Assembly: GCA_036258335.1 (NCBI GenBank)
Contig: DATADW010000083.1
Span: forward strand, 1 to 61,199
DNA: 61,199 bases
From: Acidimicrobiia bacterium
Lineage (GTDB): Bacteria > Actinomycetota > Acidimicrobiia > Spongiisociales > DATADW01
Direction: 5' to 3'
The notes under the pieces were generated by a model. That model searched no databases, was not told where the DNA came from, and was given only the letters and a program-made list of their open reading frames with translations. Shown in pieces: positions 13,230 through 32,495 of the stretch (within the stretch, counting starts at the first letter, position 1; the number at the start of each line of letters is the position of its first letter). Both the position numbers and the translations under genes were made by a program.

Positions 13230-13241
13230 CCGCACCGGTAG

Positions 13242-13271: not shown

Positions 13272-13275
13272 ACCG

Positions 13276-17046: not shown

Positions 17047-17504
17047 GCATGTCACCGCCCATGCCAGCCGATAGTGAGGAAGGGGACCTTCGGGTGAGTC
17101 GAGAGATCATCATCCGTCGTCACGAGCTGGATGAGCGGTTTGACCCCTCAGGTGGTCCCGGTGGGCAGCACGCCAACCGATCGAACACCAGGGTGGAGCT
17201 GTCCTTCGACCTCGGTTCGAGCACCTCGCTCCCGCCCGAGGCCAAGCGACGGGCGTTGCGGCTGCTGGCGGATCGGTTCCCCGACGGTGTCGTGAGCATC
17301 ACCGCTGCCGACACCCGCTCCCAGTGGCGCAACCGGAGGATCGCACGAGCGCGGCTGGCAGACCTCCTCGCCGACGCCATCGCCGCCCCGCCGCCGCCCC
17401 GCCGCCCCACGCGGCCCACCGCCGCCTCCCGGCGGAGGAGGCTCGATGAGAAGCGGATGCGCGCCGAGGTGAAGCGGTTGCGGCGCCGTCCCGATGTCGA
17501 ATGA
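17043..17504 (+). CDS. arfB: alternative ribosome-rescue factor ArfB (peptidyl-tRNA hydrolase, GGQ)
   Basis: GPGGQHANRSNTRVEL plus a basic C-terminal tail (RRPTRPTAASRRRRLDEKRMRAEVKRLRRR), as in E. coli YaeJ. ATGA overlap with the ABC-F stop. Confidence 0.85.
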   Translation: MSMSPPMPADSEEGDLRVSREIIIRRHELDERFDPSGGPGGQHANRSNTRVELSFDLGSSTSLPPEAKRRALRLLADRFPDGVVSITAADTRSQWRNRRIARARLADLLADAIAAPPPPRRPTRPTAASRRRRLDEKRMRAEVKRLRRRPDVE

Positions 17505-19135
17505 CTCCCCAAGACGAGACCGTCGCCGCGGTGCCGCCACCCGAGCACTGGTGGCAGGGGGCGGTTGTCTACCAGATCTACGTCCGCAGCTTCGCCGACT
17601 CCGACGGCGACGGGATCGGCGACCTGGAAGGGATACGGTCGAGGCTCGATCATCTGACCGAGACGCTCGGGGTCGACGCCATATGGATCACCCCTTTCTT
17701 CCCCTCCCCAATGCGCGACTTCGGCTACGACGTTGCCGACTACTGCGATGTCGACCCGCTGTTTGGGGACCTGGCCCGTTTCGACTCACTTCTCTCCGAT
17801 TGTCACCAGCGCGGGCTCAGGGTGATGATCGACTGGGTACCCAACCACACATCGGACCTTCACCCCTGGTTTGTGGAGTCACGGTCCTCGCGGGATAACC
17901 CCAAGCGAGATTGGTACGTCTGGCGGGACCCCGCAGATGACGGTTCACCGCCCAACAACTGGCTCGCCATGTTCGGAGGCTCATCGTGGGAATGGGACGA
18001 GCGGACGCGGCAGTACTACCTGCACTCGTTTCTCCCCGAGCAGCCCGATCTCGACTGGCGCAACCCCGAGGTCGAGTCGGCCATGCTCGATAGCCTTCGC
18101 TTCTGGTTGGACCGGGGTGTCGATGGCGTGCGCATCGATGTGGCGCACTACCTGATGAAAGACCCGGGTCTGACCGACAATCCGCCTGCTGAGGGCCCGA
18201 CGGATTATCGGCCGCTGGGCGAGCCCGATAGCCAGATCCACATCAACGACAGGGGCCATCCTGACATCCACTCACTTTTCCGGCGGATCCGCGGTGTGCT
18301 CGATTCCTATCCCGATGACCGGTTCGCCATCGCCGAGATCCACGAGTCCGACTGGGAGACCTGGGCCTCGTACTACCAGCCGCCGTCGCTCGACAGCATC
18401 CACATGCCCTTCAACTTCTCGCTGCTCTACGCCCCCTGGGACGCCGAGGAGCTTCGGCAGAGCATCGAAGCCGCCGAGGCGGCGGTGCCCGAGGGCGCCT
18501 GGCCCAATCATGTGCTGGGGAACCACGACGAGGCCAGGGTTGCCTCCCGGTTCGGCGAGCGGCGTGCGGGTTTGGCCGCCATCCTGCTGCTCACCCTACG
18601 GGGCACGGTCACTATGTACTACGGCGACGAGATAGGAATGCCCGAGACCGCCATCCCCCCCGGTGAGATTCGCGATCCTCAGGGGATCAGGCTGGGAACC
18701 CCGACACGCGACGGTTGCCGCACCCCGATGCAATGGAGCGATCAACCGCACGCCGGGTTCTCCCCCCCGGAGGCGCCGGGGACATGGCTCCCGCTGTCGA
18801 CCGACTGGAAGCAGCGCAATGTGGACAGCCAGCTCGACGACCCGGGTTCGCTGCTCCAGCTCTACCACCGGCTGCTGGCTGCCCGCCGTTCCCCGTCGCT
18901 GCGCCGAGGTGCGTTCCGTTCGCTTCCCGCGCCACCGGGTTGCCTGGTCTATGAGAGGTCCGCTCCTGGGTCGGCTGCCGTGGTGGTAGCGCTCAACCTG
19001 GGTGGAGATGTGACCGCAATCGACTTGCCGGCAGGGACGGTGCTCGTCGCCACCGACCCGGGCGCCGAGGGAAAGCCTGTGAGCGGGCCAATCGAGCTGG
19101 CGGGGAACGAGGGGGTCGTCATAGAGCTCACGTGA
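17501..19135 (+). CDS. GH13 alpha-glucosidase / oligo-1,6-glucosidase-like
   Basis: WWQGAVVYQIYVRSFADSDGDGIGDL, VPNHTSDLHPWF and GVDGVRIDVAHY. ATGA overlap with the arfB stop. Confidence 0.85.
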   Translation: MTPQDETVAAVPPPEHWWQGAVVYQIYVRSFADSDGDGIGDLEGIRSRLDHLTETLGVDAIWITPFFPSPMRDFGYDVADYCDVDPLFGDLARFDSLLSDCHQRGLRVMIDWVPNHTSDLHPWFVESRSSRDNPKRDWYVWRDPADDGSPPNNWLAMFGGSSWEWDERTRQYYLHSFLPEQPDLDWRNPEVESAMLDSLRFWLDRGVDGVRIDVAHYLMKDPGLTDNPPAEGPTDYRPLGEPDSQIHINDRGHPDIHSLFRRIRGVLDSYPDDRFAIAEIHESDWETWASYYQPPSLDSIHMPFNFSLLYAPWDAEELRQSIEAAEAAVPEGAWPNHVLGNHDEARVASRFGERRAGLAAILLLTLRGTVTMYYGDEIGMPETAIPPGEIRDPQGIRLGTPTRDGCRTPMQWSDQPHAGFSPPEAPGTWLPLSTDWKQRNVDSQLDDPGSLLQLYHRLLAARRSPSLRRGAFRSLPAPPGCLVYERSAPGSAAVVVALNLGGDVTAIDLPAGTVLVATDPGAEGKPVSGPIELAGNEGVVIELT

Positions 19136-19200
19136 GAGGTCGCGGGAGAGCTGCTGCCTGCGGAGTGCGGTCAACCGGGGAGACGTGCCACGATGGGCGG

Positions 19201-20577
19201 ATGAAAGCGGGACCGCGAGTTGTGGTCGTGGCCAACCGATTGCCAGTGCGGCGTGAGGGCGACGGCTGGGAGGTCAGCCCGGGCGGGTTGGTGAGCGCGC
19301 TGACCCCGATACTCGAGAAGAGAGATGGGTCATGGGTCGGTTGGACCGGCATCCCGGACTTCTCGCACCCGCCGTTCACCCTCGAGGGCATCGAGCAGCG
19401 GCCGGTACAGCTCAGCGCCGCCGAGTTGGAGACCTTCTACCTGGGTTTCTGCAACGGCACCGTGTGGCCGCTCTACCACGATGCGCTGCGCACGCCCGAG
19501 TTCCACCGGCACTGGTGGCGACCGTACGTCGCCGCCAACCAGCGGTTCGCCGAAGAGGCAGCCGCTGCTACCCGCAGCGGCGACATCGCCTGGATCCAGG
19601 ACTACCAGCTGCAGCTTGTGCCAGCGATGTTGCGGCGCCTACGAGCCGACCTCTCGATCGGATTCTTCCTCCACATCCCCTTCCCTGCGGTCGAGTTGTT
19701 CGCTCGCCTCCCCTGGCGGACCCAGATGTTGGAGGGATTGCTCGGCGCCGACGTCATTGGTTTCCAGACCAGGCTCGCCGCGCAGAACTTCGCCCGCTCG
19801 GCGGTCCGTTTCACCAGCGCGACCGGCACGACGCGCCAGCTCGAGCACGAGGGCAGGACCATCCGAATCCAGGTCGCCCCCATCTCGATCGACACCGCTC
19901 GCTACCGAGCCGTGGCACAGTCGCCAGAGGTGGCCGATCTCACCCGCCGGCTGCGCTCTGATCTCGGGCCGGATCGGATCATCCTGCTTGGTGTCGACCG
20001 GCTCGACTACACCAAGGGCATCGATGTCCGGCTGCGTGCCTTCGAGACCCTGCTGACGACCAACCCCGAATTGGCTCGTCGCGCCGTGCTCGTACAGGTG
20101 GCGGTGCCCAGCCGCGAGGAGATCGAGGATTACGTCGATATGCGAAACCTGGTAGAGCAGCTCACCGGCCGGATAAACGGCGAATTCGGCGATTCGGAAT
20201 GGACGCCCGTGCTCTACCTCTACCGCAACCTGCCTCCCGAGGAGCTCATCGCCTACTACCGCGTGGCGGACGTCATGATCGTCACACCGCTGCGCGACGG
20301 GATGAACCTGGTGTGCAAGGAGTACGTGGCCAGCAGGGTCGATGGCGACGGCGTTCTCGTCCTGAGCGAGTTCGCCGGTGCCGCCCAGGAGCTGGGGGAC
20401 GCCATCATCGTCAACCCGCACGACCTCGACGGGACCGCCGCCGCATTGGAGCGAGCGATGACCCTCCCCCCGAAGGAGGCGCGCCGCCGCATGTCGCGGA
20501 TGAGAGCGGTGGTCGAGCGCCAAGACGTTTTCGGGTGGGCCGCCGGCTGTCTGGAGGAGCTCGGCATCGAGTCATGA
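19201..20577 (+). CDS. otsA: trehalose-6-phosphate synthase
   Basis: Starts MKAGPRVVVVANRLPV, followed by VSPGGLVSAL and the GT20 core. ATG 19201 chosen. Confidence 0.9.
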   Translation: MKAGPRVVVVANRLPVRREGDGWEVSPGGLVSALTPILEKRDGSWVGWTGIPDFSHPPFTLEGIEQRPVQLSAAELETFYLGFCNGTVWPLYHDALRTPEFHRHWWRPYVAANQRFAEEAAAATRSGDIAWIQDYQLQLVPAMLRRLRADLSIGFFLHIPFPAVELFARLPWRTQMLEGLLGADVIGFQTRLAAQNFARSAVRFTSATGTTRQLEHEGRTIRIQVAPISIDTARYRAVAQSPEVADLTRRLRSDLGPDRIILLGVDRLDYTKGIDVRLRAFETLLTTNPELARRAVLVQVAVPSREEIEDYVDMRNLVEQLTGRINGEFGDSEWTPVLYLYRNLPPEELIAYYRVADVMIVTPLRDGMNLVCKEYVASRVDGDGVLVLSEFAGAAQELGDAIIVNPHDLDGTAAALERAMTLPPKEARRRMSRMRAVVERQDVFGWAAGCLEELGIES

Positions 20578-21350
20578 CGACGGCTGTCGCTCCGAGCTTG
20601 GACAAGGCCTTGCGGCTGGCGGCAACGACCGGGCACCTTCTCGTGGCGAGCGACTTCGACGGGACGCTCGCCGAGATCGTGAGCCGCCCCGAGCTGGCGG
20701 TGGCTCATCCTGACGCCATCACCGCTCTGGCCGAGCTGGCCGCGTTGCGGGTCACCGACGCCGCGGTCATCTCGGGGCGATCTCGGTCCGACCTCGTCGG
20801 GTTGACCGGGAACCCCCCAGGTGTCGTGCTGGTGGGCGGCCATGGTTCCGAATGGGGTGCCGAGTGGGGAGGTGGGCTCGAGCTGACCGGCGAGCAGCGC
20901 ACCGCACTTGACGCCGCCGAGGCTCTGGTCGAGGAGGTAGCCGCTGGCCACCCAGGCTCGTTGGTCGAGCCGAAGCGGGCGGCTGTGGTGCTCCATACGA
21001 GGGGGATCGACGATCCAGCCGCTGCCGAGCGGGCAGCCTCGGCGGTGCGCGATGCAGCCGTCGACATTCCCGGTGTGGCGGTCCTCGATGGCAAGCGGGT
21101 CGTCGAGCTCACCGTGACGCCTGAAACCAAGGGGACGGCGCTGGCGGGCCTTCGACAGCGGATGGGGGCAACAGCCGTGGTGTTCATCGGGGACGACATG
21201 ACCGACGAGACCGCCTTCGAGGTGTTGGGTTCGACCGATATCGGCATCAGAGTGGGATCGGGTCGGACAGTCGCTCTCCACCGGGTAGGCACTGTGGAAG
21301 GCGTGGCGGGCCTATTGCAGCGTCTTCTCGAGCTGCGCCGCTCCCGATAG
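20574..21350 (+). CDS. otsB: trehalose-phosphate phosphatase (HAD)
   Basis: HAD motif I DFDGTLA, followed by ISGRS and GDDMTDE. ATGA overlap with the otsA stop. Confidence 0.85.
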   Translation: MTTAVAPSLDKALRLAATTGHLLVASDFDGTLAEIVSRPELAVAHPDAITALAELAALRVTDAAVISGRSRSDLVGLTGNPPGVVLVGGHGSEWGAEWGGGLELTGEQRTALDAAEALVEEVAAGHPGSLVEPKRAAVVLHTRGIDDPAAAERAASAVRDAAVDIPGVAVLDGKRVVELTVTPETKGTALAGLRQRMGATAVVFIGDDMTDETAFEVLGSTDIGIRVGSGRTVALHRVGTVEGVAGLLQRLLELRRSR

Positions 21351-21372
21351 GGTCTAACCGGTTGCGCTACTG

Positions 21373-24300
21373 CTAGATCGCACTCAGGACGGCCCGATCG
21401 CCCAGCGCCTCTCGCACCCCGGCTGCCGCAACCGGCACCAGATGTGAACGGTTGTTGAGCTCCCAGGCGAGCTCGCGCACCGCCTTCTCGATCATGGTGG
21501 CGTCGAGCAAGAGGATCAGGTCGTCGGTCTCGATGGGGAGCAACTGCCCGTCGCTCGCCTCGAGGTAGGTCCTGAGAAAGGCCGATGACACCCATGACCA
21601 CCAGGCTCGGGACCACGGCTCGTACTCGAAGACCGCTTCGGGGGCGATGGCGCCCCGCTCGACCTCGGCCAACAGCGTGGAGAGGGCGGCGTAGTGCAGC
21701 GACCGGAGCAGGTCGGCGATGTCACGGGCCGGTGACTCCTTCAGCCGGCGCTGGCTGAGCGGCTCGGATGTGTCGCCGGCGAAGTCAAACGGCATGAAGT
21801 CCCGACCTGTGGAGAGAATCTCGTCGAGCCGGTAGTCGCCGTGGCATCGGATCCGCATCCCGCCGACCCGCTCATCGTTCACCGATCGGGCGACGGTCAG
21901 GATCGCCTCCTCCCGCTCGCACAGCTCGGCTACAGCCGTGGCCACCGGTGGAGGGAGCTCCGGTGCCCGGCGCCGGGCCATCGCCAGGGTCTGCCGGATC
22001 GAGGCGCGGTAGCTCTGGGCGAGCGACCGTCGGTACAGCGAGGTGAGCGGCTCTGGCCGGAAGTCGGGATCCTCCAAATCGGATGCCAAGGCACGGTGCA
22101 GCTCGGCGGTGAGCCGGCCCAGCGCCTCGCCGACCTGGAGGTCGGTGTCGATGCGCTCCGCCAGCCAGGTAGGGGGGGCGGCGCTCATCAGATGCAGCGG
22201 GTGGCGCCGCACCGGAGGGCTGGTACGGAACTCGCGGGGAGCCGCGGCCAACTCGTCGTAGAACAGCCCGAGCGAGTCGGTGAGCAGCTCCCAGGCGGTT
22301 CCCTCGTGTGGGACGTACTCCTGGAGAAGAGCGACCGTGCTGGCCTCCTCAGGCCCGTCGCGATAGTCGAGGGCGCCGAGCACGGCCGGGAGAGCGTGGA
22401 AAGAGGTGCGCTCGGTGAGGAAGCGGCGCAGCTCCAAGTCGGGGTGGATCCCCGGCTCGGTTCGGCGGAACAGCTTGATCGCGATCCCCCCTCCAAAGAC
22501 GACGTTTGTGTGTCCCTCAGGGGAGTCGTGCATATAGACCTGCTCCTCCAACGCTGCGGAGATCCGGTCGGCGTCGATCCCTTCGCCCGGTGTCCCCGCC
22601 AGCGCCGCCGAGGCGCCGTGCCTTCTCCCGCCCTCTGCCATAAGGCGCAGCGTCCCAGCCCGGAGTTGGGGGTCCCACAACCCGTCGATGACCGTGGCCA
22701 TCCCGTCATCGAGCCTGAGATGGGCGATGGCGGGGCGGTCGGGCGGTGGGTTGGGCTCATCGGGTACCACGGCGAGCGGTATGACGTATTGCTCCGGCTC
22801 ACCTTCTGAGTAGTCCACCGCCAACGTTGCAAGCCACGAGTCCAGCCCGTCGACGCCCAGCGGGACCACCTCGGGGATCCGGGCGCCCACCGCACGCCGC
22901 AGCCGGCTGCGGAACCAGGCCCGATTCCGGGCGTAGCGGAGCAGCGCCAGAGGAAAGCCGGTCCGCTCCTCGAAGAGGACATCGAGCGGGCCGCGGATCG
23001 TCAACTCTGGGACGGCCTCGCCGGTGGCGGTGATCGGCTCAAAGCTAGGGACGAGTTCGAACCAGTAAAAAGAGTGGGGTCCCAAGGTGAGCACCCATGG
23101 CCCCTCGCCTATCCGGGGGAACTCGGTGCGCCCGAAGAGCTCGACTGGGACCGATCCGCCAAAGGCGGTGAGGTCGAGCTCGACGAACTGGCTGAACCGT
23201 GAGAGGTTGGCGACGACGACCACCGTCTCCTCGCCATGACGCCGGAGAAATGCGAGAACTCGCGGGTTCTCGGGATGGAGGAACTCGATGTCCCCCCGGC
23301 CGAAAACCTGGTGGCGCCGCCTCAGGGCGACAATGCGTCTGGTCCACCACAACAGCGAGCTTGGGTTGGATCGTTGGGCCTCGACGTTGACTGTCTCGTA
23401 GTGGTACTCAGGGTCGATGATCACCGGCATGTAGAGGCTCTGGGGATTCGCCACCGAGAAACCGGCGTTGCGATCGCTCGACCATTGCATCGGGGTCCTG
23501 ACCCCGTTGCGATCCCCCAAGTAGATGTTGTCGCCCATGCCTATCTCGTCGCCGTAGTAGAGGACCGGGGTACCAGGCAGTGACAAGAGGAGCGCGTTCA
23601 TCAACTCGATCCTGCGCCGGCTGTTGTCGAGCAAGGGAGCCAACCGGCGCCTGATGCCGAGGTTGAGGCGGGCTCTGCGGTCCCTGGCGTAGGTGCGGTA
23701 CATGAAGTCCCGCTCTTCCTCGGTGACCATCTCCAAGGTGAGCTCGTCGTGGTTGCGAAGGAAGATGGCCCATTGGCTGTTCTCCGGGATTGTCGGTGTC
23801 TGCTCCAGGATGTCCACGATGGGGAACCGGTTCTCCATCTGTATCGACATGAACAGGCGCGGCATCAGGGGGAAGTGGAACGCCATGTGGCACTCGTCCC
23901 CGTCGCCGAAATAGGCGGCGGCGTCCTCGGGCCACTGGTTGGCCTCGGCGAGGAGCATCCGCTCCTGGTACCGCTCCGAGAGGTGGCGGCGCAGGTCCTT
24001 CAGCTGCTGGTGGGTCTCCCGGAGGTTCTCGCATATGGTCCCTTCGCGTTCGTACAGGTAGGGGACGGCGTCGAGACGGAGCCCATCGACCCCCAGGTCG
24101 AGCCAGAAGTCGAGCACCGAGCGCAGCGCCTCTTCGACCTGTGGGTTGTCGTAGTTGAGGTCGGGCTGATGGCCAAAGAACCGGTGCCAGAAGTAGGCAC
24201 GGGCCACCGGGTCCCACGACCAGTTGGAGGTCTCGGTGTCCTGGAAGATGATCCGCGCTTGGCGGTACTTGTCGGGGCTGTCACTCCACACGTAGAAGTC

Positions 24301-24690
24301 ACGTTCGGTGGTTCCCGCGGGCGAACGCCGGGCGCGCTGAAACCAGGGGTGCTGGTCGGATGTGTGGTTGATGACCAACTCGGTGATCACCCGCAACCCC
24401 CGGCGATGAGCAGCCCCGAGGAACTCCTCGAAGTCGTCGATGGTGCCGTATGCGGGATGGACGCTGGTGTAGTCAGCGATGTCGTACCCGTCATCGCGCA
24501 ACGGCGACGGGTAGAAGGGCAGCAGCCATACGGCGGTGACCCCCAGATCCTGGAGATGGTCGAGCCGGCTCGTCAGCCCGCGGAAGTCCCCTATGCCGTC
24601 AGCGTTGGAATCCTGGAAGGCGCGGACGTGCACCTCGTAGATGACGGCGTCCTTGTACCAGAGGGGGTCCTGGGTCAGTAGCGATCTCAT
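21373..24690 (-). CDS. treS: trehalose synthase fused to maltokinase (TreS-Pep2)
   Basis: N-terminal GH13 TreS ([30 protein letters not shown]) followed by a roughly 450-aa kinase-like C-terminal half. Total 1105 aa. Confidence 0.9.
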
Positions 24691-25764: not shown

Positions 25765-25871
25765 CCGGACTCCCAATCTTGCCCGACCCGCGGCTTTCGC
25801 ATCTCTGGGAGTGGTGCGGGCCGGGGGAGGGAATCGTTGCTCTGTACTCTCGCGGCGCCACAAGGAGGACA

Positions 25872-26156
25872 GTGCGGGAAACGACGAACGGCTTAGCTAG
25901 CCCGGTCGCCATCGTGCTCGGATTGGTGGCTCTAGCCCTTCATTTGGTGGTGGGGTACTTCGTGCTGGCGTCTGGACTGGTTGCGCCATTGTGGGCTGTG
26001 CTGATGCTCGTGTTGATCTGGGTGGTCGCCCTGATAGTCGGCTGGCGGATATGGCGAACCCATCCGGCCGTGGCGGTCGTGGTCCCGGTCGCCACCGCTC
26101 TGATCTGGCTAGCCGTCATCGCTGCCGGTGGTCGTTTCCTCGGTTGGACGGCCTGA
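25872..26156 (+). CDS. small membrane protein (94 aa, 3 predicted TM)
   Basis: AAGGAGG lies 3 nt before GTG 25872. The product VRETTNGLASPVAIVLGLVALALHLVVGYFVLASGLVAPLWAVLMLVLIWVVALIVGW continues hydrophobic. Same frame as track ORF 25779..26156. Confidence 0.55.
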   Translation: MRETTNGLASPVAIVLGLVALALHLVVGYFVLASGLVAPLWAVLMLVLIWVVALIVGWRIWRTHPAVAVVVPVATALIWLAVIAAGGRFLGWTA

Positions 26157-26187: not shown

Positions 26188-27225
26188 CTAGCTGTCCCCG
26201 TCGGTGTCGCCGAACATCAGGGTGACCCCGAGCACTGAGACGACCTCGGTGGACAAGGTGCGGTGGAGCGCTCTAGCCGCCTCCTCCGCTGCTGCCAGGT
26301 CTGCGGGATCGGCCTTTTCGAGCGAGGCGGGCAGTGCCGCGAGCAGTTCGCTGAGGTCTGACATTCGGGTCAGGACTCGTTCGTCGGTCGCGGCGAAGCC
26401 TGCAGCCACCAAGGGGGAGAGCCCTCCTTTGCCACCGCCCTCGTAGACGGCGGCGACACCCTGGATGACCGCCTCCGCCTCGCGTGCTCCAATGCCGGCA
26501 GCGCCCTGGGCTTCCCCCGGGGCGGGAATGCCATCGTTGGTGCTCCCGGTGGCGATCCCGAGTCGTCGGTCGGCTACCTCCTGGACGGCGAAGATGAGGT
26601 CGTTGACCACGTCATCGAGCTCCTCCTGCGAGCGCTGCTCCGACTGGGTGTCATCGAGCGCGGCGAGCACCGTTGCCGCCGCCTCCTCCACCACCGTCGA
26701 TGCAGATGCAGCCATCTGGCATCGCCGCTCGGCTCTCCCGGACAGCGCCTCGGAGCCGGGACCGAACAGCAGCCACTCGATGGCGCGCAGCCCGCGCTGG
26801 TCGGCTCCGAGTTGCCTGATGGCCTCGACCGACACCGGGTCGGTCCCCGCCAGCAATGCCTCGACTCCTTCGATGTCCGGGGCAAAGGTGAAGCTCGCTT
26901 CTAGCCGCATCTCGTCGACTCGGGCGCTGTGGGCGGTGGTCCGAAGCCACGCCAGCCAGGCGGCCCCCCAAGCGGCCCTCGCCTCGGCAAGCGAATCCTG
27001 GGAAGGTTGCTGGCAGAGCATGTTGGTCGCTTCGACCAGGTCAGTGGCGCTATCGGCCAGCACGCCGTAGGCCGGGATGATCACCTCATCGTTGATCTGG
27101 TCGAGGGCCGTTCGTCGATCGGCTTCTCCTTCCACTGTTGTCGGTGGCGCGCTCGAGACGGATCCGCCCGAAGCACTACAAGCGGCGACGGTAAGCGCGA
27201 CGAGGATCACTGCCGGCCACCTCAC
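26188..27225 (-). CDS. imelysin-like lipoprotein (degenerate metal motif)
   Basis: Starts VRWPAVILVALTVAAC (lipobox). GLRAIEWLLFGP sits where imelysins carry GxHxxE. The GTG overlaps the upstream stop (GTGA at 27222-27225). Confidence 0.7.
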   Translation of the reverse strand: MRWPAVILVALTVAACSASGGSVSSAPPTTVEGEADRRTALDQINDEVIIPAYGVLADSATDLVEATNMLCQQPSQDSLAEARAAWGAAWLAWLRTTAHSARVDEMRLEASFTFAPDIEGVEALLAGTDPVSVEAIRQLGADQRGLRAIEWLLFGPGSEALSGRAERRCQMAASASTVVEEAAATVLAALDDTQSEQRSQEELDDVVNDLIFAVQEVADRRLGIATGSTNDGIPAPGEAQGAAGIGAREAEAVIQGVAAVYEGGGKGGLSPLVAAGFAATDERVLTRMSDLSELLAALPASLEKADPADLAAAEEAARALHRTLSTEVVSVLGVTLMFGDTDGDS

Positions 27226-28619
27226 AGCGACTCCAGGAACGCCAAGAGAGCAGCCCGCTGCTCGGCGGTGAGCGCTTCGAACCTGGAGCGGGTCCCCTCC
27301 GCCTCCCCCCCGTGCCAGAGGATCGCCTCCTCCAGGTCGTGTGCCCTCCCGTCGTGGAGAAACCGGGTGTGTCCCGATACCACATCTGTCAGGCCGATCC
27401 CCCAAAGCGGAGGGGTCCTCCATTCGGATCCGCTCGCCTCGAACTCGGGCCGGCCGTCTGCCAATCCCTCACCCATGTCGTGGAGAAGGAGGTCGGTGTA
27501 GGGATGAATCAGCTGCAATGCCAGGCCCGATATCTCGGACTCCCCAGTGCGGAGCGTGTCGCGATGGCAGGCGGTGCATCCAACGGTGGCAAAGAGGGTT
27601 TCTCCCTCTTGGGCCGCAGTGTCATCGATGTCGCGTCGCGCCGGCACCGCAAGGGTGGACGAGTAGAAGGTCACCCGTTCCAGCTTGTGGTCGTCGAGTT
27701 CGGGATCGCCGCCTGTCGGCGCCTCGACGCAGGCGCGCTGGGTGGGGGTGCACGGTTGTTCGGTGAACAGCGACGAGGTGATCCCGATGTCACCCTCGAA
27801 AGCGGCCGCCACCTGTTGCTCCAAGGTGGGGACGTTCGCCTTCCAGCCGAACCGGCCGATGACCGTGTCGCCGGTGGCGACCTCCCACACTCGGTTGGGG
27901 CGGCCCGAGACCCCGTCGCCGTCGGCGTCATCCGGGTCGGCAGCCGACAGGATCTCCGCATCGGGCACCGCCTCTAGCAAGCCGCCCCCATGTATCGGCG
28001 GTGCCACCCGCGCCGAGAACATCGATGCCGCCACCGGGCCATATGCGGGGTCGGCGATGATGTGGGTGGGGTCGGAGAGGGTGGCAGTGGCGCCATCCGG
28101 GTAGGTGTACGTGACTAGCTCCGCGAGGACTCTGATCATCCCCTCAGGAAGGACGCCGTTTATGGCGCGGTCCTGCAACTGGCCGCCATAGACCGGGTCG
28201 GGACGTGGCTCACCGTGCGGCCCAACCCCGGGCACCGAGAGCCTGACAAGCATTCCTCTCTCCGGGTCCTGGTCGTCCTCGGGGGGGCGGCCGCGCCCGT
28301 CCCGGAAGTGGCAAGACGAGCACGATTGGGCGTTGAACAGCGGACCGAGGCCGTCGCGTCCATCGGTCGAAGCTGGCGCCGTCACCCAGTTGTCGTTGAA
28401 GAAGTTGTTGCCCACCGCAAATGCCCGCCGCTCCAACGGTGACAGGGTGGGGAGGGCAAGTCCGAATGCACTCGATGAGGTGTCGAAGACCGTTGCATCT
28501 CCACCGGAGCGCGCCTCTACCGGGATGGTGGTTGTCGACGGCGGGCTCGTGTCCGCCGGTTGACCGGTGGTGCAAGCAGCCAGTAACGCCAACAGCCAGA
28601 GCTGCACCCGGCGCCGCAA
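27222..28619 (-). CDS. di-haem cytochrome c / DUF1111 (putative peroxidase, so-called thiol oxidoreductase)
   Basis: Two CxxCH motifs (CSSCHFRDGRG, GCTACHRD) and a lipoprotein-like start LRRRVQLWLLALLAAC at TTG 28619. Confidence 0.8.
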   Translation of the reverse strand: MRRRVQLWLLALLAACTTGQPADTSPPSTTTIPVEARSGGDATVFDTSSSAFGLALPTLSPLERRAFAVGNNFFNDNWVTAPASTDGRDGLGPLFNAQSCSSCHFRDGRGRPPEDDQDPERGMLVRLSVPGVGPHGEPRPDPVYGGQLQDRAINGVLPEGMIRVLAELVTYTYPDGATATLSDPTHIIADPAYGPVAASMFSARVAPPIHGGGLLEAVPDAEILSAADPDDADGDGVSGRPNRVWEVATGDTVIGRFGWKANVPTLEQQVAAAFEGDIGITSSLFTEQPCTPTQRACVEAPTGGDPELDDHKLERVTFYSSTLAVPARRDIDDTAAQEGETLFATVGCTACHRDTLRTGESEISGLALQLIHPYTDLLLHDMGEGLADGRPEFEASGSEWRTPPLWGIGLTDVVSGHTRFLHDGRAHDLEEAILWHGGEAEGTRSRFEALTAEQRAALLAFLESL

Positions 28620-28623
28620 CCGA

Positions 28624-29757
28624 TCAGATTTCCAGGTTGATGGTGACACCCAGCGCCTGGGCCGCCCGGGCGATGCTCTCACCCTGCGCCTCCATCGATT
28701 CGATCGCTTCGAGCAAAGCCTCCCTTGCCGGGTCGCCGTCCGGTGCCTGGATCATCTGATCAAAGGTCGTCGGAAAGCCCTCGGCCAGCGAGACACTGTT
28801 GTCGAGTTGCTCGCGGAGGGTGGTGTCGAGTTCGGGGTCGGACTGGGCAACCAGGTCCGATAGGGACGGCCCATCGACGCCCTCCATCTCGGCCAGGTAC
28901 ACCATTCTCACTCCGCGGGCGTTACCCAAGACGTCGGCGTTGGTGTTGTCGGAGAAGCAGGAATGCTCATCCTCTTGGTCCCTCGTCTCGTATGCGACCG
29001 CCATTCGCTCGCCGGCAAGCTCGCCGGCGGAGAGGGCGCCGATCCCGCGCAGCATCTTCTGCAACGCCGCTTGGGGATCAGCGAGGAACTCGGGCCGGTA
29101 GCCGTCAGTTGCCTCCGGGTCCCACGCATCGCGCACCGCGGTGAGGTCGGTGACCAGCTGCGCGGTGGCCAGCCGCAGGTACTCGGCGCGACGCTCGGAG
29201 TTGGCAGCATCGACATAGTCGGTGACCGGCCTTGCTCCTGGTCCGTCGGCGCTCAAGTCCTGGCCCCACAGGAGGAATTCGATGGCGTGCCAGCCGGTGG
29301 AGATGTTGGTCTCACCACCCTCCTCGTTAACAGACACAAGGACGTCGGGATCGATCTCGGGGAACTCGTCGACCATGTTGATGATCCCGGCATCGGGATC
29401 GCCGTCCACGTAGTCGACATACGCCTCGTCCATCGGCCATGCGTTGATTTGCCCCTCGGGGCCGTTCTCGGGGTTGTCGATCGGCCCGTCATAGAAGCGG
29501 AACGCCTCGGTGGGGCCGTAGTCGTCGCGGGCGTCCAGCCAAGCCTGTTGCGCCGCCGCCAGGTTGTCCTCGGTGGGGTCGGCCAGAAAGGCATCGATAG
29601 CCGACTTCATCTCGGTTGCCGACGCCACGGAAGCGTCGTAAGCGGTGTGCACGAGATCGGCGTACGTCTCGGCTACGGCTTCAGGGGTGGCCTCTTCCGA
29701 GCCGCCGCAAGCGACCAAGAGGGCCAACAGCACTGTCGCGGTGGTCCCTCTGCGCAT
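28624..29757 (-). CDS. imelysin / IrpA-like iron-regulated lipoprotein
   Basis: Starts MRRGTTATVLLALLVACGG (lipobox). Canonical GWHAIEFLLWGQD (HxxE) and FRFYDGPIDNPENGPEGQINAWP are present. Confidence 0.8.
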   Translation of the reverse strand: MRRGTTATVLLALLVACGGSEEATPEAVAETYADLVHTAYDASVASATEMKSAIDAFLADPTEDNLAAAQQAWLDARDDYGPTEAFRFYDGPIDNPENGPEGQINAWPMDEAYVDYVDGDPDAGIINMVDEFPEIDPDVLVSVNEEGGETNISTGWHAIEFLLWGQDLSADGPGARPVTDYVDAANSERRAEYLRLATAQLVTDLTAVRDAWDPEATDGYRPEFLADPQAALQKMLRGIGALSAGELAGERMAVAYETRDQEDEHSCFSDNTNADVLGNARGVRMVYLAEMEGVDGPSLSDLVAQSDPELDTTLREQLDNSVSLAEGFPTTFDQMIQAPDGDPAREALLEAIESMEAQGESIARAAQALGVTINLEI

Positions 29758-29788
29758 CCCATTCCCTCCAAGACCCGGTGGGGTTCAC

Positions 29789-29807
29789 TGCTGTTAGGCG
29801 AACCTAA
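29789..29807. promoter_or_regulatory. IdeR/DtxR-type iron box candidate
   Basis: TGCTGTTAGGCGAACCTAA matches the consensus TTAGGTTAGGCTAACCTAA at 15 of 19 positions. It contains the dyad TTAGG-N4-CCTAA and lies in the 67-bp divergent promoter between the IrpA-like gene and the HTTM gene. Confidence 0.6.
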
Positions 29808-29824
29808 TATCCACTATCACCATC

Positions 29825-31183
29825 GTGCAAAATCCCCCAAGCCGTGTCCTGGCCTGGCACCGCACCCTTGGGCGTCCGGTCGACGGAGCGTCGCTGGCGG
29901 TCTTTCGGATCGCTATCGGGTTCGTGGGGGCGGTATCGATCGGTCGTCTCTTCGCCAATGGATGGATCGAGGCGCTCTATGTGGCGCCGCAGCACCATTT
30001 GCGCTTTCCCGGCCTGGCGTGGGTCCCGGTGCCACCCGAGTGGGGAATCAGGGCGCTGGCCGTATTGGCCGGCTGTGCTGCGGTGGCCACAGCACTGGGT
30101 TGGCGTCACCGCACGGCTGCCGCTTTGTTCGCCATCGCTTTTACCTGGCTGGAGCTGGTAGAGGCGACCACATTTCTCAACCATTACTGGCTGCTCTCGC
30201 TGATGGCGGCGCTGTTGGCGGCGGTGCCTGCCAACCGCGCCTGGTCGCTCGACGCGAGGGCGGGGCGCGCAGGCGGCCCGGTACCCCTCGGCGCGGTGTG
30301 GGTCCTCCGGCTCCAACTGGCGGTGGTCTACTTTTTCGCCGGCGTGGCCAAGCTGCATCCAGACTGGCTCTTGGACGGTGCTCCTTTGCGGTTATGGCTC
30401 CCCGGGCGCGGGGATTTGCCGTTGATCGGCCCGCTGCTGGCCGCCCCTGGCGTAGCGCTGGCGCTGAGCTGGGCGGGTGCGCTGTTCGACCTGACCATCG
30501 TTGGCTTCCTCCTGGTGCGACGGACGCGCCTCTGGGCGTGGATCGCCGTGGTCGCCTTCCACGTGGCCACTTGGGCGCTGTTCCCCCGCCTTGGAGTGTT
30601 CCCCTGGGTGATGATCGCCCTCACCACGATCTTCTTCGCACCTGACTGGCCCCGACGGCTGGTGGCGCGTTCGGTATCGGAGCCGCCTCCGGCGGTGCGG
30701 GAGAGGGCTGGCTGGCCGGCTGTCGCCACTGCAGCGCTCGTGGTGTGGACAGCGGTGCAGTTGGCGCTCCCGATGCGTCATATCGCCTACCCAGGTGATG
30801 CCCGCTGGACAGGGGAGGGATTCCGTTTTGCCTGGAACGTCCTGGCGGTGGAGAAGGTCGGCTGGATCAGCTTCCGTGTCACCGACCCGGGAGGACGCAC
30901 CTGGGTGGATGATGGGTCCGGTCTCTACACCGAGTCGCAACGGAGGGTGGCGCCAGCGGAGCCGGACATGATCGCCCAGATGGCGCTGGCGCTGGCCGAG
31001 GCGGAGGGCCCGGGCACCGAGGTGCGGGTGGATGCGTTCGTGTCGGTCAATGGCCGCGAGGCGGAGAGGATCATCGACCCCGAGATCGACATGGCCTCAC
31101 TCCAACCGGGGACGAGGCCCATCGACTTCATCCTGGCGCCGCAGGGCGGCACGACGACGGCCGCGGAAGGGAGTGAACGATGA
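29825..31183 (+). CDS. HTTM-domain (vitamin-K-carboxylase-like) integral membrane protein
   Basis: VDGASLAVFRIAIGFVGAVSIGR and FLNHYWLLSLMAALLA are typical of the HTTM N-terminal region. 452 aa, GTG start. Confidence 0.8.
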   Translation: MQNPPSRVLAWHRTLGRPVDGASLAVFRIAIGFVGAVSIGRLFANGWIEALYVAPQHHLRFPGLAWVPVPPEWGIRALAVLAGCAAVATALGWRHRTAAALFAIAFTWLELVEATTFLNHYWLLSLMAALLAAVPANRAWSLDARAGRAGGPVPLGAVWVLRLQLAVVYFFAGVAKLHPDWLLDGAPLRLWLPGRGDLPLIGPLLAAPGVALALSWAGALFDLTIVGFLLVRRTRLWAWIAVVAFHVATWALFPRLGVFPWVMIALTTIFFAPDWPRRLVARSVSEPPPAVRERAGWPAVATAALVVWTAVQLALPMRHIAYPGDARWTGEGFRFAWNVLAVEKVGWISFRVTDPGGRTWVDDGSGLYTESQRRVAPAEPDMIAQMALALAEAEGPGTEVRVDAFVSVNGREAERIIDPEIDMASLQPGTRPIDFILAPQGGTTTAAEGSER

Positions 31184-31524
31184 GCGTGGTGCGGATCAAC
31201 GTGATCGAGGTGCCCGAGGGAAGGGCCGAAGAGTTGGAGAGGCGTTTCGCCAACCGGGCCGGAGCGGTGGACCAAGCTCCCGGATTCCTCGGCTTCGAGC
31301 TCCTCCGGCCCACCGGCGGAGGGACCAGCTATTTCGTCTACACGCGATGGGAATCCGAGAAGGCCTTCGAGACCTGGCGCTCCAGTGCTGCCTTCGGGAC
31401 CGGGCACGCCCAGCACACGGCAGAGGGACCGGTCGGGACCGGATCCGACCTGCTCAGCTTCGACGTGGTGATCGAGTCGAGGGGCGCTCAGCCGGACAGG
31501 GCCGGGATCACCGACTCGCCGTAG
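31180..31524 (+). CDS. mhuD: IsdG-family haem-degrading monooxygenase, MhuD-like
   Basis: MSVVRINVIEVPEGRAEELERRFANRAGAVDQAPGFLGFELLRP...YFVYTRWESEKAFETW aligns with M. tuberculosis MhuD. Asn7, Trp66 and a His at 75/76 are retained. ATGA overlap with the HTTM stop. Confidence 0.85.
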   Translation: MSVVRINVIEVPEGRAEELERRFANRAGAVDQAPGFLGFELLRPTGGGTSYFVYTRWESEKAFETWRSSAAFGTGHAQHTAEGPVGTGSDLLSFDVVIESRGAQPDRAGITDSP

Positions 31525-32495
31525 GCCTCGAGGGTGGCGTCGGCATCGTCGTGCATCAAGTAGAGGGCGAATTGGTCCACCCCGAGACCGCGTAGTTCCT
31601 CGAGCCTCTCGAGGTGTCGGTTCGCCGGGCCGAGGATGCAGAACCGGTCGACGATGTCGTCGGGGACGAAGTCCGTACTCGGGTTGCCCGCTCGGCCGTG
31701 GTGGGTGTAGTCGTACTCCTGGCGTCCCTTGATGTACGAGGAGAGGGCGCTCGGGACCTTGCTCTCGTCGCTTCCGTATCTGTTGACCAGGTCCACGACA
31801 TGGTTGCCGACCATCCCGCCAAACCAGCGGAGTTGCTCGCGCTGGTGTGCGACGTCATCCCCGATGTACGCCGGCGCAGCCACACAGATTGTGACCTCCG
31901 ACGGGTCTCGTCCGGCTGCGGCCGCCGCCTGGCGGACCGACCCCGCCGTCCACTGCAACAGTTGTGGGTCGGCAAGCTGGAGGATGAACCCGTCAGCCTC
32001 GCCCCCGGCCAGCTCCAGCGCCTTGGGGCCGTAGCCTGCCACCCAAACCGGAAGGTCCCACCCGCCGTCGGGCACCCACGGGATGCGTAGCTCCTTGCCC
32101 CGCACCCTGACGCTTTCCCCGGCAACAAGCCCCTTGATCACTCGCATCGACTCCGACATGGTGGCAAGGGTGGTGGGGGGGCGGCCGATGAAGCGCAGCG
32201 CCGAGTCCCCTCGCCCCATCCCGCAGATGGTCCTCGGCCCGTACATCTCGTCGAGCGTGGCAAACAGCGACGCCAGCACCGTCCAATCGCGGGTTCCGGG
32301 GTTGGTCACCATTGGCCCGATCACCATCCGATCGGTAGCGGCCAGCATCGCCGAGTAGATGACGAAGGGCTCCTCCCACAGGATGTGCGAGTCAAAGGTC
32401 CACCCGTGGGTGAAGCCGAGCGACTCGGCCCTGGCGGCCAGTTCGATCACCCGACTGGAGGGTGGGTTGGTCTGAAGGACAACCCCGAAATCCAC
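31488..32495 (-). CDS. LLM-class (luciferase-like) F420-dependent oxidoreductase
   Basis: 335 aa with a TIM-barrel LLM pattern (GFTHGWTFDSH, VAGYGPKALELAGGEADGFIL). The 3' end overlaps mhuD by 37 nt in convergent orientation. Confidence 0.75.
   Translation of the reverse strand: MDFGVVLQTNPPSSRVIELAARAESLGFTHGWTFDSHILWEEPFVIYSAMLAATDRMVIGPMVTNPGTRDWTVLASLFATLDEMYGPRTICGMGRGDSALRFIGRPPTTLATMSESMRVIKGLVAGESVRVRGKELRIPWVPDGGWDLPVWVAGYGPKALELAGGEADGFILQLADPQLLQWTAGSVRQAAAAAGRDPSEVTICVAAPAYIGDDVAHQREQLRWFGGMVGNHVVDLVNRYGSDESKVPSALSSYIKGRQEYDYTHHGRAGNPSTDFVPDDIVDRFCILGPANRHLERLEELRGLGVDQFALYLMHDDADATLEAYGESVIPALSG

What the first reader, a model, noticed from the sequence alone, without database searches (positions are those of the whole stretch)
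26188..31524. Lipoprotein imelysin / di-haem / imelysin operon divergent from a coupled HTTM-MhuD pair: candidate haem/iron acquisition system
On the minus strand an IrpA-like imelysin with canonical GWHAIEF is followed 5 nt later by a DUF1111 di-haem protein. A second imelysin with a degenerate motif (GLRAIEW) follows by GTGA overlap. All three have lipobox or signal-like N-termini. Divergently, an HTTM polytopic membrane protein is ATGA-coupled (31180-31183) to an MhuD-like haem-degrading enzyme that retains Asn7, Trp66 and His. Imelysin plus DUF1111 clusters are linked to iron uptake in Gram-negative bacteria. Here the pieces are monoderm lipoproteins tied to a membrane HTTM protein of unknown function and a cytoplasmic haem oxygenase. 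No classical ABC or MFS importer is visible. HTTM may therefore be the membrane component of an undescribed uptake or redox route.
Basis: partly seen in the sequence, partly recalled or inferred. Interest (0 to 1): 0.65.

Follow-up and report, generated by a model that had tools for sequence, protein, structure and literature searches.

The report
Iron-uptake lipoproteins paired with carboxylase-like enzyme
A known type of bacterial iron-acquisition gene cluster (two imelysin lipoproteins plus a two-haem protein) is here, and in at least six phyla, tied to a membrane enzyme related to the human vitamin K-dependent carboxylase; this gives both poorly understood systems a testable partner, whereas the neighbouring haem-degrading gene is a local add-on.

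Summary
They are an IcmP-type imelysin (GWHAIEF), a two-haem DHOR/DUF1111 protein, a His-less IPPA-type imelysin (GLRAIEW), an HTTM protein with the lumenal domain of vitamin K carboxylase, and a close MhuD homologue. Both overlaps (GTGA, ATGA) and all three lipoboxes are present.

The conserved link is HTTM with imelysin, not HTTM with MhuD. In 80 genomes from six or more phyla, 73 have an imelysin gene within 300 nt of HTTM, in four different gene orders. MhuD is adjacent in only 3, the window's closest relatives.

Triads found through the two-haem gene carry either HTTM (9) or DUF1513 (22) as a fourth gene, never both. So this is a variant of the Fur-regulated PA4370-4373 type of system.

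The HTTM keeps the catalytic Lys218, His160 and Asn159 equivalents in 82 of 82 sequences. Its model matches only human GGCX and no transporter. A palindrome, TTAGG-N4-CCTAA, marks the promoter here and in relatives. The Riemerella counterpart is induced by low iron.

I read HTTM as a quinol-dependent enzyme partner of the imelysin. Its chemistry is inferred. I found no paper describing the link.

The parts
28624..29757 (-). Imelysin-1: IcmP/PA4370-type imelysin lipoprotein with GWHAIEF. First gene of the minus-strand operon.
   Evidence: PF09375 at 261 bits. PDB 7xrx (IcmP) at E 6e-71. Lipobox LLVAC.
27222..28619 (-). Two-haem c-type protein of the DHOR/DUF1111 family; predicted lipoprotein. 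TTG start 4 nt after the imelysin-1 stop.
   Evidence: PF06537 at 311 bits. Both CxxCH motifs are invariant in alignment A2 (C100/C103/H104 and C348/C351/H352). Junction read. No homologue of solved structure found by sequence.
26188..27225 (-). Imelysin-2: His-less IPPA/PA4372-type imelysin-like lipoprotein (GLRAIEW) with a C-terminal DTDGD tail. Its GTG start overlaps the DHOR stop (GTGA).
   Evidence: PF09375 at 91.6 bits. Full-length match to PDB 3pf0 (IPPA), E 8e-5. Junction read. In 79 His-less homologues the lipobox Cys is kept in 76 and the DxDGD tail in 78.
29794..29807 (.). Operator-like palindrome TTAGGCGAACCTAA in the 67-nt divergent intergenic region. It lies 17 nt upstream of the HTTM start codon.
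   Evidence: Only match with 1 mismatch or fewer in 61 kb; 0.16 expected. The same motif sits at the operon promoter in 9 related Acidimicrobiia loci and upstream of Fe3+ ABC transporter genes in L050. The surrounding 19-mer matches the IdeR/DtxR consensus (written from memory) at 15 of 19 positions, but falls outside 3 mismatches of the degenerate form.
29825..31183 (+). [quoted passage not shown]
   Evidence: PF05090 and PF22777. Matches human GGCX residues 54-489 at E 1e-39, with K218->K176, H160->H120 and N159->N119. These are invariant in 82/82 sequences. AF2 pLDDT 81.9; Foldseek matches only GGCX, TM 0.76-0.82.
31180..31524 (+). MhuD-like ABM-fold protein, ATGA-coupled to HTTM. A lineage-specific addition.
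   Evidence: PF03992. PDB 3hx9 (MhuD) at E 1e-30, with N7, W66 and H76 (= MhuD H75). Adjacent to HTTM in only 3 of 80 loci.

Best explanation
This is a metal-regulated (probably iron-regulated) iron-acquisition module that works outside the cytoplasmic membrane. It is a variant of the four-gene PA4370-4373 type of system.

Three lipoproteins sit on the outer face of the membrane of a single-membrane Acidimicrobiia bacterium: an IcmP-type imelysin, a two-haem DHOR protein, and a His-less IPPA-type imelysin. By analogy with EfeO and EfeB, they bind iron and process it by redox chemistry.

The fourth component is DUF1513 in Proteobacteria. Here it is an HTTM enzyme related to vitamin K carboxylase, whose catalytic cavity and lumenal domain face the same outer compartment.

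I propose that HTTM uses menaquinol and O2 as GGCX does: the catalytic Lys deprotonates the quinol, and oxygenation creates a strong base. I propose that it acts on its conserved neighbour, the IPPA-type imelysin, most likely by carboxylating acidic residues to build or strengthen a metal-binding site.

The MhuD homologue is a cytoplasmic haem-degrading enzyme. This lineage recruited it into the same regulated transcription unit, probably as a remnant of an adjoining haem/siderophore ABC importer operon.

Shown: gene identities, the conserved linkage, retention of catalytic residues, the GGCX fold, and the promoter palindrome. Inferred: iron as the substrate in this organism, the orientation of the active site (taken from GGCX topology), use of menaquinol, and the imelysin as substrate. 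The confidence of 0.55 is for the system-level reading (an iron module with HTTM as the dedicated enzyme partner of the imelysin). I give carboxylation itself only about 0.25-0.3.
For: Gene identities.

Linkage: an imelysin gene lies within 300 nt of HTTM in 73 of 80 genome loci and within 6 kb in 77 of 80. The other 3 are HTTM genes at contig edges. The loci span Actinomycetota, Chloroflexota, Myxococcota, Bacteroidota, Gemmatimonadota and Balneolota, in four different gene orders.

The imelysin directly beside HTTM is normally the His-less type.

The reverse scan, centred on DHOR, found 34 triads with readable sequence after the IPPA-type gene. The fourth gene was DUF1513 in 22 and HTTM in 9, and the two never occur together.

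Annotated confirmation: the Chondrinema litorale plasmid carries imelysin / di-heme / imelysin / HTTM / TonB-dependent receptor, all on one strand.

Enzyme features: the equivalents of N159, H160, K218 and W399 are invariant in 82/82 sequences. K218 is the catalytic base of GGCX. The model matches only GGCX; no other structure matches better than E 0.4 or TM 0.2.

Iron context: in double-membrane bacteria a TonB-dependent receptor is part of the cluster (30 loci). FecCD, Peripla_BP_2 and Fe3+-type binding-protein genes adjoin the cluster in Dehalococcoidia and Acidimicrobiia. In Riemerella, the TonB receptor, 'vitamin K-dependent gamma-carboxylase', imelysin and hypothetical genes RAYM_09779-09794 are all induced by iron restriction and listed as Fur-regulated (PMC5609570). 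PA4370-73 and VC1264-66 are Fur-regulated (PMC3143127).

The palindrome is unique in the window and recurs at the orthologous promoters.

Precedent: the bacterial HTTM enzyme MloH is a true vitamin K-dependent carboxylase.
Against: No experiment was done on this clade, and no +44 Da modification of any imelysin has been reported.

The protein lacks the C-terminal part of GGCX (residues after about 489) that binds the propeptide, so substrate recognition must differ.

Proteobacterial IPPA-type proteins work with DUF1513, a soluble protein that cannot carry out quinone-dependent carboxylation. If the two fourth components are functionally equivalent, a shared redox role is more natural than a protein modification.

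The invariant C-terminal DxDGD tail is also present in IPPA from Psychrobacter, so it is not an HTTM-specific target.

From memory (not checked here), the Leptospira carboxylase orthologue showed epoxidase activity but no carboxylase activity.

The palindrome is not a canonical IdeR box, so the regulating metal is not proven.

More distant HTTM proteins (Paracoccus albus beside DUF393, Bernardetia, Persicobacter JZB09) have no imelysin neighbour.
Confidence: 0.55

Rival explanations
1. HTTM is a non-carboxylating redox partner linked to the quinone pool. It oxidises menaquinol with O2 (epoxidase- or oxidase-like). In doing so it supplies oxidant such as peroxide, or reducing equivalents, to the two-haem/imelysin proteins that convert Fe2+ and Fe3+. 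This would be the role DUF1513 plays in Proteobacteria.
For: HTTM and DUF1513 are mutually exclusive in the same gene slot, which suggests analogous roles. The quinol-activating residues are invariant. DHOR is a putative peroxidase. EfeB-type systems need an oxidant. The Leptospira triad is induced by H2O2. By taxonomy and my own knowledge, carriers of the HTTM type belong to phyla that use menaquinone, whereas DUF1513 carriers on plasmids are all Proteobacteria.
Against: In 25 Bacteroidota loci HTTM is paired with the His-less imelysin alone, and DHOR lies within 6 kb in only 3. No redox cofactor other than the quinone is known in this fold. The linker that lines the Glu-binding site in GGCX is also conserved (W337 in 82/82, G332 in 81/82), which suggests a bound substrate side chain.
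Confidence: 0.25
2. One reading: HTTM is the membrane importer for haem or iron, and the coupled MhuD degrades the imported haem. HTTM-MhuD would be the core of a new uptake route.
For: The ATGA coupling is conserved in the window and in the three closest relatives found in the genome scan (L005, L006, L009; L001 is the same contig as L005). MhuD residues are kept. No ABC or MFS importer was seen among the window ORFs scanned. In L047 and L044 an ABM gene lies beside the cluster.
Against: ABM is adjacent to HTTM in only 3 of 80 loci and within 6 kb in 6 of 80. Where ABM is nearby in other lineages it sits inside a Peripla_BP_2/FecCD/ATPase operon, a classical importer. The HTTM model resembles no transporter and keeps enzyme catalytic residues. 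Imelysins PIBO and IPPA did not bind haem in thermofluor assays (PMC3143127).
Confidence: 0.07
3. The module is mainly a defence against peroxide or oxidative stress on the cell surface (a two-haem peroxidase with accessory proteins), not an iron-uptake system.
For: DHOR is annotated as a putative peroxidase. Leptospira LIMLP_14170-14180 (LruB, a thiol oxidoreductase/DHOR-like protein, and an imelysin) are induced by H2O2.
Against: The same Leptospira genes also respond to iron limitation. The systems are Fur- or iron-regulated in Pseudomonas, Vibrio and Riemerella. They are linked to TonB-dependent receptors and iron ABC importers. The palindrome is shared with Fe3+ ABC transporter genes.
Confidence: 0.1
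4. HTTM lies next to the imelysin genes by inheritance or chance, with no functional link.
For: Only gene neighbourhood was examined. No fusion between HTTM and imelysin was found in the ten long homologues checked.
Against: Adjacency holds in 73 of 80 loci across six or more phyla and is kept through four different gene orders. The genes are co-induced in Riemerella. HTTM is complementary to DUF1513.
Confidence: 0.02

Closest known systems
P. aeruginosa PA4370-PA4373 (IcmP operon) and V. cholerae VC1264-VC1266: Fur-regulated imelysin / DUF1111 / IPPA-type imelysin clusters (Xu et al. 2011, PMC3143127)
   Same: The same three proteins are present outside the cytoplasmic membrane, in the same order. 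Imelysin-1 matches IcmP (7xrx) at E 6e-71. A DHOR gene is present. Imelysin-2 matches IPPA (3pf0) over its full length and has GxxxxE without His.
   Different: The fourth gene is a membrane HTTM/carboxylase-like enzyme instead of the soluble DUF1513. The host has a single membrane and the proteins carry lipoboxes. The predicted regulation is by a TTAGG-N4-CCTAA palindrome, not a Fur box. That PA4373 itself is DUF1513 is from memory; a P. aeruginosa plasmid copy shows cytochrome c / imelysin / DUF1513.
EfeUOB (Ftr1-type permease, EfeO with an M75 imelysin domain, DyP peroxidase EfeB)
   Same: The logic is the same: a membrane protein, an M75/imelysin metal-binding protein, and a haem peroxidase-like protein, all under iron control.
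   Different: There is no Ftr1/EfeU permease, no cupredoxin domain and no DyP. The EfeO model scores 19 bits against a cut-off of 270. The membrane protein is an enzyme fold, not a permease.
[quoted passage not shown]
   Same: The HTTM and lumenal domains align at E 1e-39. The equivalents of K218, H160, N159 and W399 are kept. The predicted fold has TM 0.8 to GGCX. MloH shows that bacterial HTTM enzymes can carboxylate.
   Different: The protein is 452 aa and ends near GGCX residue 489, so the propeptide-binding C-terminal region is absent. Cys99 of the disulfide is not kept. The genomic partner is an iron-uptake lipoprotein, not a Gla-domain protein or a polyketide pathway. Activity is untested.
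Riemerella anatipestifer RAYM_09779-09794 (TonB receptor / 'vitamin K-dependent gamma-carboxylase' / imelysin lipoprotein / hypothetical)
   Same: It has the same HTTM-imelysin pairing, and the same order as the Bacteroidota clusters found here (DUF4856, imelysin, HTTM, TonB receptor). It is induced under iron restriction and listed as Fur-regulated.
   Different: It is the double-membrane version, with an outer-membrane receptor and DUF4856, and no adjacent DHOR or MhuD. The paper lists the genes in a table without treating them as a system.
MhuD (Rv3592) of M. tuberculosis, an IsdG-family haem-degrading enzyme
   Same: E 1e-30 over the full length. Asn7, Trp66 and His75 (His76 here) are kept.
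   Different: It falls below the NCBIfam equivalog cut-offs for HmuQ and IsdG (42.8 against 130 bits). It is translationally coupled to an HTTM gene, an arrangement found only in this narrow lineage.

Membership tests
Imelysin (Peptidase_M75), IcmP/IrpA-type | Pfam PF09375 above the gathering score | tested here: met
   261 bits against a cut-off of 23.5.
Imelysin (Peptidase_M75), IcmP/IrpA-type | GxHxxE motif | tested here: met
   GWHAIEF. The first imelysin of the triad carries GWHAIEF or GYHAIEF in nearly all loci.
Imelysin (Peptidase_M75), IcmP/IrpA-type | Regulation by iron | tested here: inconclusive
   A conserved promoter palindrome is shared with Fe3+ ABC transporter genes. No expression data exist for this organism.
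IPPA-type imelysin-like family (PA4372/VC1266) | Imelysin fold with GxxxxE lacking the His, encoded after the DUF1111 gene | tested here: met
   PF09375 at 91.6 bits. GLRAIEW. Full-length match to 3pf0 at E 8e-5, sharing the C-terminal TDGD.
DHOR / DUF1111 two-haem oxidoreductase | PF06537 above the gathering score and two CxxCH haem-binding motifs | tested here: met
   311 bits against a cut-off of 22. CSSCH and CTACH, invariant in A2. Haem binding and activity cannot be tested here.
Vitamin K-dependent carboxylase (GGCX) family | HTTM membrane domain plus VKGC lumenal domain | tested here: met
   PF05090 at 241.7 bits and PF22777 at 98.3 bits. Foldseek TM 0.76-0.82 to GGCX only.
Vitamin K-dependent carboxylase (GGCX) family | Catalytic base Lys218, with the neighbouring His160 and Asn159 | tested here: met
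   K176, H120 and N119, invariant in 82/82 clade members.
Vitamin K-dependent carboxylase (GGCX) family | C-terminal lumenal region that binds the propeptide (residues about 495-513 and beyond) | tested here: not met
   The alignment stops at GGCX residue 489, and the protein ends 28 residues later.
Vitamin K-dependent carboxylase (GGCX) family | Quinol epoxidation coupled to CO2 addition on Glu or Asp | not testable with these tools
   Needs biochemistry.
IsdG/MhuD haem-degrading enzymes | ABM fold with the Asn7 / Trp66 / His75 catalytic set | tested here: met
   PF03992. Alignment to 3hx9.
IsdG/MhuD haem-degrading enzymes | Score above the NCBIfam equivalog cut-offs (HmuQ, IsdG, IsdI) | tested here: not met
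   Best score 42.8 bits against a cut-off of 130. The library gave no MhuD-specific match.
EfeUOB | Ftr1/EfeU permease, cupredoxin-M75 EfeO and DyP EfeB | tested here: not met
   EfeO model scores 19 bits against 270. No such families were found among the window ORFs scanned between 15.5 and 47.7 kb.
PA4370-4373-type four-gene system | DUF1513 as the fourth gene after the IPPA-type imelysin | tested here: not met
   HTTM takes that role. DUF1513 and HTTM never co-occur (29 and 11 loci).

The most novel reading that the evidence does not exclude
The imelysin-linked HTTM clade is a true menaquinol-dependent protein carboxylase. Its substrate would be an iron-uptake lipoprotein. That would make this the first bacterial Gla (or carboxy-Asp) protein system. 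It would also be a plausible ancestral job for the animal vitamin K carboxylase: building a metal-chelating site outside the cell.
Probability: 0.2. Interest if true: 0.9.

Novelty: new variant of a known kind. Interest (0 to 1): 0.68.

Why it matters
Two long-standing puzzles meet here.

First, imelysin/DUF1111 clusters are widespread and iron-regulated, but they have no known membrane component and no known mechanism.

Second, bacteria encode thousands of homologues of vitamin K carboxylase: 1428 representative clusters at E 1e-30 or better. Apart from MloH, their roles are unknown.

A conserved, clade-specific pairing of the two gives each a concrete partner. It suggests clear experiments: mass spectrometry of the imelysin with and without HTTM, detection of menaquinone epoxide, and low-iron phenotypes. 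Tractable hosts exist, including Riemerella, Flavobacterium psychrophilum and Nannocystis.

The alternation between HTTM and DUF1513 also gives DUF1513 a functional context.

Tried and rejected
**Canonical IdeR box.** The degenerate consensus with up to 3 mismatches gave no hit. I therefore describe only a 14-bp palindrome with IdeR-like half sites.

**Promoter and terminator scans.** The sigma-70 and intrinsic-terminator scans of 25.5-32.6 kb found nothing.

**Gene fusions as evidence of physical coupling.** Ten long HTTM homologues carried no imelysin domain; one carried TPR repeats.

**HTTM-specific target in the His-less imelysin.** The invariant C-terminal DxDGD is also present in IPPA (3pf0), so it is a family trait.

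**Leptospira.** The LruB operon is TonB receptor / LruB / DHOR-like / imelysin. I could not show that the Leptospira carboxylase orthologue lies next to it.

**Solved structures.** Sequence searches found none for DHOR or DUF4856.

**Complex prediction.** Co-folding HTTM with the imelysin was not attempted. The tool folds one chain and accepts only window or database sequences, so a paired alignment could not be submitted.

**Lipobox count.** My crude count across homologues under-detects; it missed the window's own imelysin-2. I did not use it. The conserved Cys column (76 of 79) is the better measure.

**Last literature search.** It was poorly specified and returned nothing about HTTM.

Full report
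**1. Observation.** The five ORFs exist at the stated coordinates, and Pfam assigns all of them well above threshold.
- 28624-29757(-): imelysin, PF09375, E 2e-77.
- 27222-28619(-): two-haem DHOR/DUF1111, PF06537, E 1e-92.
- 26188-27225(-): second imelysin, PF09375, E 9e-26.
- 29825-31183(+): HTTM, PF05090, E 1e-71, plus the lumenal domain of vitamin K-dependent carboxylase, PF22777, E 5e-28.
- 31180-31524(+): ABM, PF03992, E 7.5e-22.

The motifs GWHAIEF and GLRAIEW, the two CxxCH motifs, and the three N-termini ending in a lipobox Cys (LLVAC, LLAAC, TVAAC) can be read directly. DHOR most likely starts at a TTG 4 nt after the imelysin-1 stop. The DHOR/imelysin-2 junction is a GTGA overlap and the HTTM/ABM junction an ATGA overlap.

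The flanking genes are unrelated: amylase-family and GT20 genes, an ACT-domain protein, a luciferase-like monooxygenase, an aldehyde dehydrogenase and an amidohydrolase. No iron-related gene lies further downstream.

**2. Identities.**
- Imelysin-1 is an orthologue-grade match to P. aeruginosa IcmP (7xrx, E 6e-71). It is much closer to IcmP than to IrpA.
- Imelysin-2 aligns end to end with IPPA (3pf0), the His-less family that includes PA4372 and VC1266.
- The three minus-strand genes are therefore the known Fur-regulated triad of imelysin, DUF1111 and IPPA-type imelysin described by Xu et al. 2011 (PMC3143127).
- The ABM protein is a close MhuD homologue (3hx9, E 1e-30) that keeps Asn7, Trp66 and the His. 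It falls below the NCBIfam cut-offs for HmuQ and IsdG.
- The HTTM protein aligns with human GGCX residues 54-489 (E 1e-39).

**3. What is conserved around HTTM.** The closest relative (81% identity, L001) has the identical layout, including ABM. A 49%-identical Acidimicrobiales genome has the divergent triad but no ABM. A Myxococcales genome has imelysin, DHOR, imelysin and HTTM on one strand with overlaps.

I then scanned one genome per species for HTTM relatives and searched the 80 loci with my own profiles built from six-frame ORFs.
- An imelysin gene lies within 300 nt of HTTM in 73 of 80 loci and within 6 kb in 77 of 80. The three exceptions are HTTM genes at contig ends.
- DHOR lies within 6 kb in 49 of 80.
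- ABM is adjacent in 3 of 80 (L005, L006, L009, all 80-86% identical to the window) and within 6 kb in 6 of 80.

The loci come from Actinomycetota, Chloroflexota, Myxococcota, Bacteroidota, Gemmatimonadota and Balneolota. Linkage survives four gene orders:
- imelysin>HTTM>, 25 loci;
- imelysin>DHOR>imelysin>HTTM>, 20 loci;
- HTTM> followed by the triad on the other strand, 14 loci;
- the window's divergent form, 8 loci.

**4. Which imelysin, and what else.** Typing the motif shows that the imelysin beside HTTM is almost always the His-less type: GFGAIEY in Chloroflexota, GMPALEY in Myxococcota, GFPALDY in Bacteroidota. The window lineage has simply inverted HTTM, so that it faces imelysin-1.

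In double-membrane bacteria a TonB-dependent receptor belongs to the cluster (30 loci). Bacteroidota add DUF4856, giving DUF4856 / imelysin / HTTM / receptor.

Dehalococcoidia and some Acidimicrobiia carry FecCD, Peripla_BP_2, ABC ATPase and Fe3+-type binding-protein genes alongside. In L047 and L044 the ABM gene sits inside such an ABC importer operon next to HTTM. The window's HTTM-ABM coupling therefore looks like a local rearrangement of an iron-acquisition island, not a core feature.

**5. Reverse test.** I scanned metagenome contigs with a DHOR alignment and analysed the loci the same way. Thirty-four triads had readable sequence after the IPPA-type gene. They break down as follows:

| What follows the IPPA-type gene | Triads |
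|---|---|
| DUF1513 (PF07433, E 8e-114) | 22 |
| HTTM | 9 |
| Contig ends (L085, probably the window-type layout) | 1 |
| Too little sequence after the gene (L123) | 1 |
| Neither (L131) | 1 |

DUF1513 (29 loci) and HTTM (11 loci) never co-occur.

On plasmids, DUF1513 copies are all proteobacterial (33 records). One is a P. aeruginosa plasmid with cytochrome c / imelysin / DUF1513.

RefSeq annotation of a Chondrinema litorale plasmid independently shows imelysin / di-heme oxidoreductase / imelysin / HTTM / TonB-dependent receptor.

Three more distant HTTM proteins have no imelysin neighbour: Paracoccus albus (beside DUF393), Bernardetia and Persicobacter JZB09. The link is therefore specific to one HTTM clade.

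**6. HTTM as an enzyme.** The equivalents of GGCX Asn159, His160, Lys218 and Trp399 are invariant in 82 of 82 clade members. The linker that lines the Glu-binding site in GGCX is also well conserved. Lys218 is the catalytic base of GGCX.

An AlphaFold model (pLDDT 81.9, pTM 0.82) matches only GGCX structures (E 1e-21 to 1e-12, TM 0.76-0.82). All other hits, including transporters, have E above 0.4 and TM of 0.2 or less.

The protein stops near GGCX residue 489, so it lacks the propeptide-binding region.

The family is large: 4022 representative clusters at E 1e-3 or better and 1428 at E 1e-30 or better.

**7. Regulation.** The 67-nt divergent intergenic region holds the palindrome TTAGGCGAACCTAA (29794-29807). 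It is the only match in the window allowing one mismatch, where 0.16 are expected.

The same motif, with 2 mismatches or fewer, lies at the corresponding promoter in L001, L006, L002, L007, L010, L016, L050, L043 and L044. It is nearly the only hit in each 21-kb locus. In L050 it also sits directly upstream of an Fe3+-type binding-protein gene and its permease gene.

The surrounding 19-mer matches the IdeR/DtxR consensus (as I recall it) at 15 of 19 positions, but falls outside 3 mismatches of the degenerate consensus. I call it operator-like and probably iron-responsive.

Published data agree. Riemerella RAYM_09779-09794 (receptor, 'vitamin K-dependent gamma-carboxylase', imelysin lipoprotein, hypothetical) are all raised by iron restriction and listed as Fur-regulated (PMC5609570). 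The Leptospira LruB/DHOR-like/imelysin operon responds to iron limitation and to H2O2 (PMC7567364).

**8. Mechanism.** Shown: a conserved module of IcmP-type imelysin, DHOR and IPPA-type imelysin, with a fourth component that is either DUF1513 or a carboxylase-like HTTM enzyme with an intact catalytic core.

Inferred: the HTTM active site faces the compartment that holds the lipoproteins (from GGCX topology). It uses menaquinol and O2. It acts on or with the IPPA-type imelysin.

My preferred chemistry is carboxylation of acidic residues on the imelysin, at roughly 0.25-0.3. The main rival is a non-carboxylating quinol-linked redox or oxidant-supplying role, at roughly 0.25. The alternation with DUF1513 favours that rival.

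**9. Novelty.** No paper in the searchable library contains both 'imelysin' and 'HTTM', and none contains 'DUF4856'. Searches for HTTM and for the carboxylase together with TonB returned only the Riemerella table and unrelated work.

The triad is known. The HTTM fourth component, its clade-specific conservation and its exclusivity with DUF1513 appear undescribed. I class this as a new variant of a known kind.

**10. Limits.**
- All functional statements rest on homology, gene neighbourhood and two published transcriptomes from other phyla.
- The loci kept by each scan are the best 80 of about 600 candidates, not an unbiased census.
- Taxon labels come from record titles.
- The link between HTTM-type clusters and menaquinone-using phyla is my own knowledge, not a test.

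Noticed in passing
L085-L164 (e.g. L141:12349-13458) and L167: In triads found through DHOR, the gene after the IPPA-type imelysin is DUF1513 in 22 cases and HTTM in 9. The two are never found together. DUF1513 copies on plasmids are all proteobacterial. This gives DUF1513 a functional context.
   Followed up: partly
L055, L058, L062, L063, L070, L072, L075 and others, about 7600-13800: Bacteroidota share a four-gene cluster: DUF4856 / His-less imelysin / HTTM / TonB-dependent receptor. DUF4856 has no solved structure by sequence search and no paper in the library.
   Followed up: partly
window 27222-26188; 79 homologues; PDB 3pf0: IPPA-type imelysins end in an almost invariant DxDGD tail (window: ...FGDTDGDS). 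The lipobox Cys is conserved in 76 of 79. The tail is also present in IPPA, so it is a family trait of unknown role.
   Followed up: partly
window HTTM residues 331-341 (about 30815-30847): The only internal low-confidence stretch of the AlphaFold model is the equivalent of the GGCX linker T391-H404, which lines the Glu-binding site. This may mean it needs a partner or substrate to become ordered.
   Followed up: no
window 31488-32495 (-): A luciferase-like monooxygenase gene converges on the ABM gene and overlaps its 3' end by 37 nt. The same neighbour recurs in L001, L006, L009, L036 and L049.
   Followed up: no
window 25779-26156 (+): A 125-aa ORF with three or four hydrophobic helices and no Pfam match converges on imelysin-2. 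L001 has a 93-aa gene called in the same gap, but on the other strand.
   Followed up: no
L009 7400-11400: HTTM, DHOR and imelysin-1 are each split into several ORFs in this 80%-identical relative. These are either frameshift errors of a long-read assembly or gene decay.
   Followed up: no
L002/L003 3249-5376; L085 3730-5852; 14 metagenome loci: A response regulator and histidine kinase pair often lies next to the triad. It could be a second layer of regulation.
   Followed up: no
window 17501-24690: A run of amylase-family and GT20 (trehalose-type) genes, including a 1105-aa amylase-family protein. It is syntenic in L001 and unrelated to the finding.
   Followed up: no
L165 6494-8362 (Paracoccus albus plasmid): A more distant HTTM protein lies divergent from a DUF393 (DCC-family) gene and has no imelysin neighbour. 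This shows a different partner for another HTTM clade.
   Followed up: no
L011, L015, L019, L020, L022, L030, L034, L039: Dehalococcoidia loci carry conserved ORFs with no Pfam match (about 251, 137 and 210 aa) directly beside the cluster. They may be extra components.
   Followed up: no
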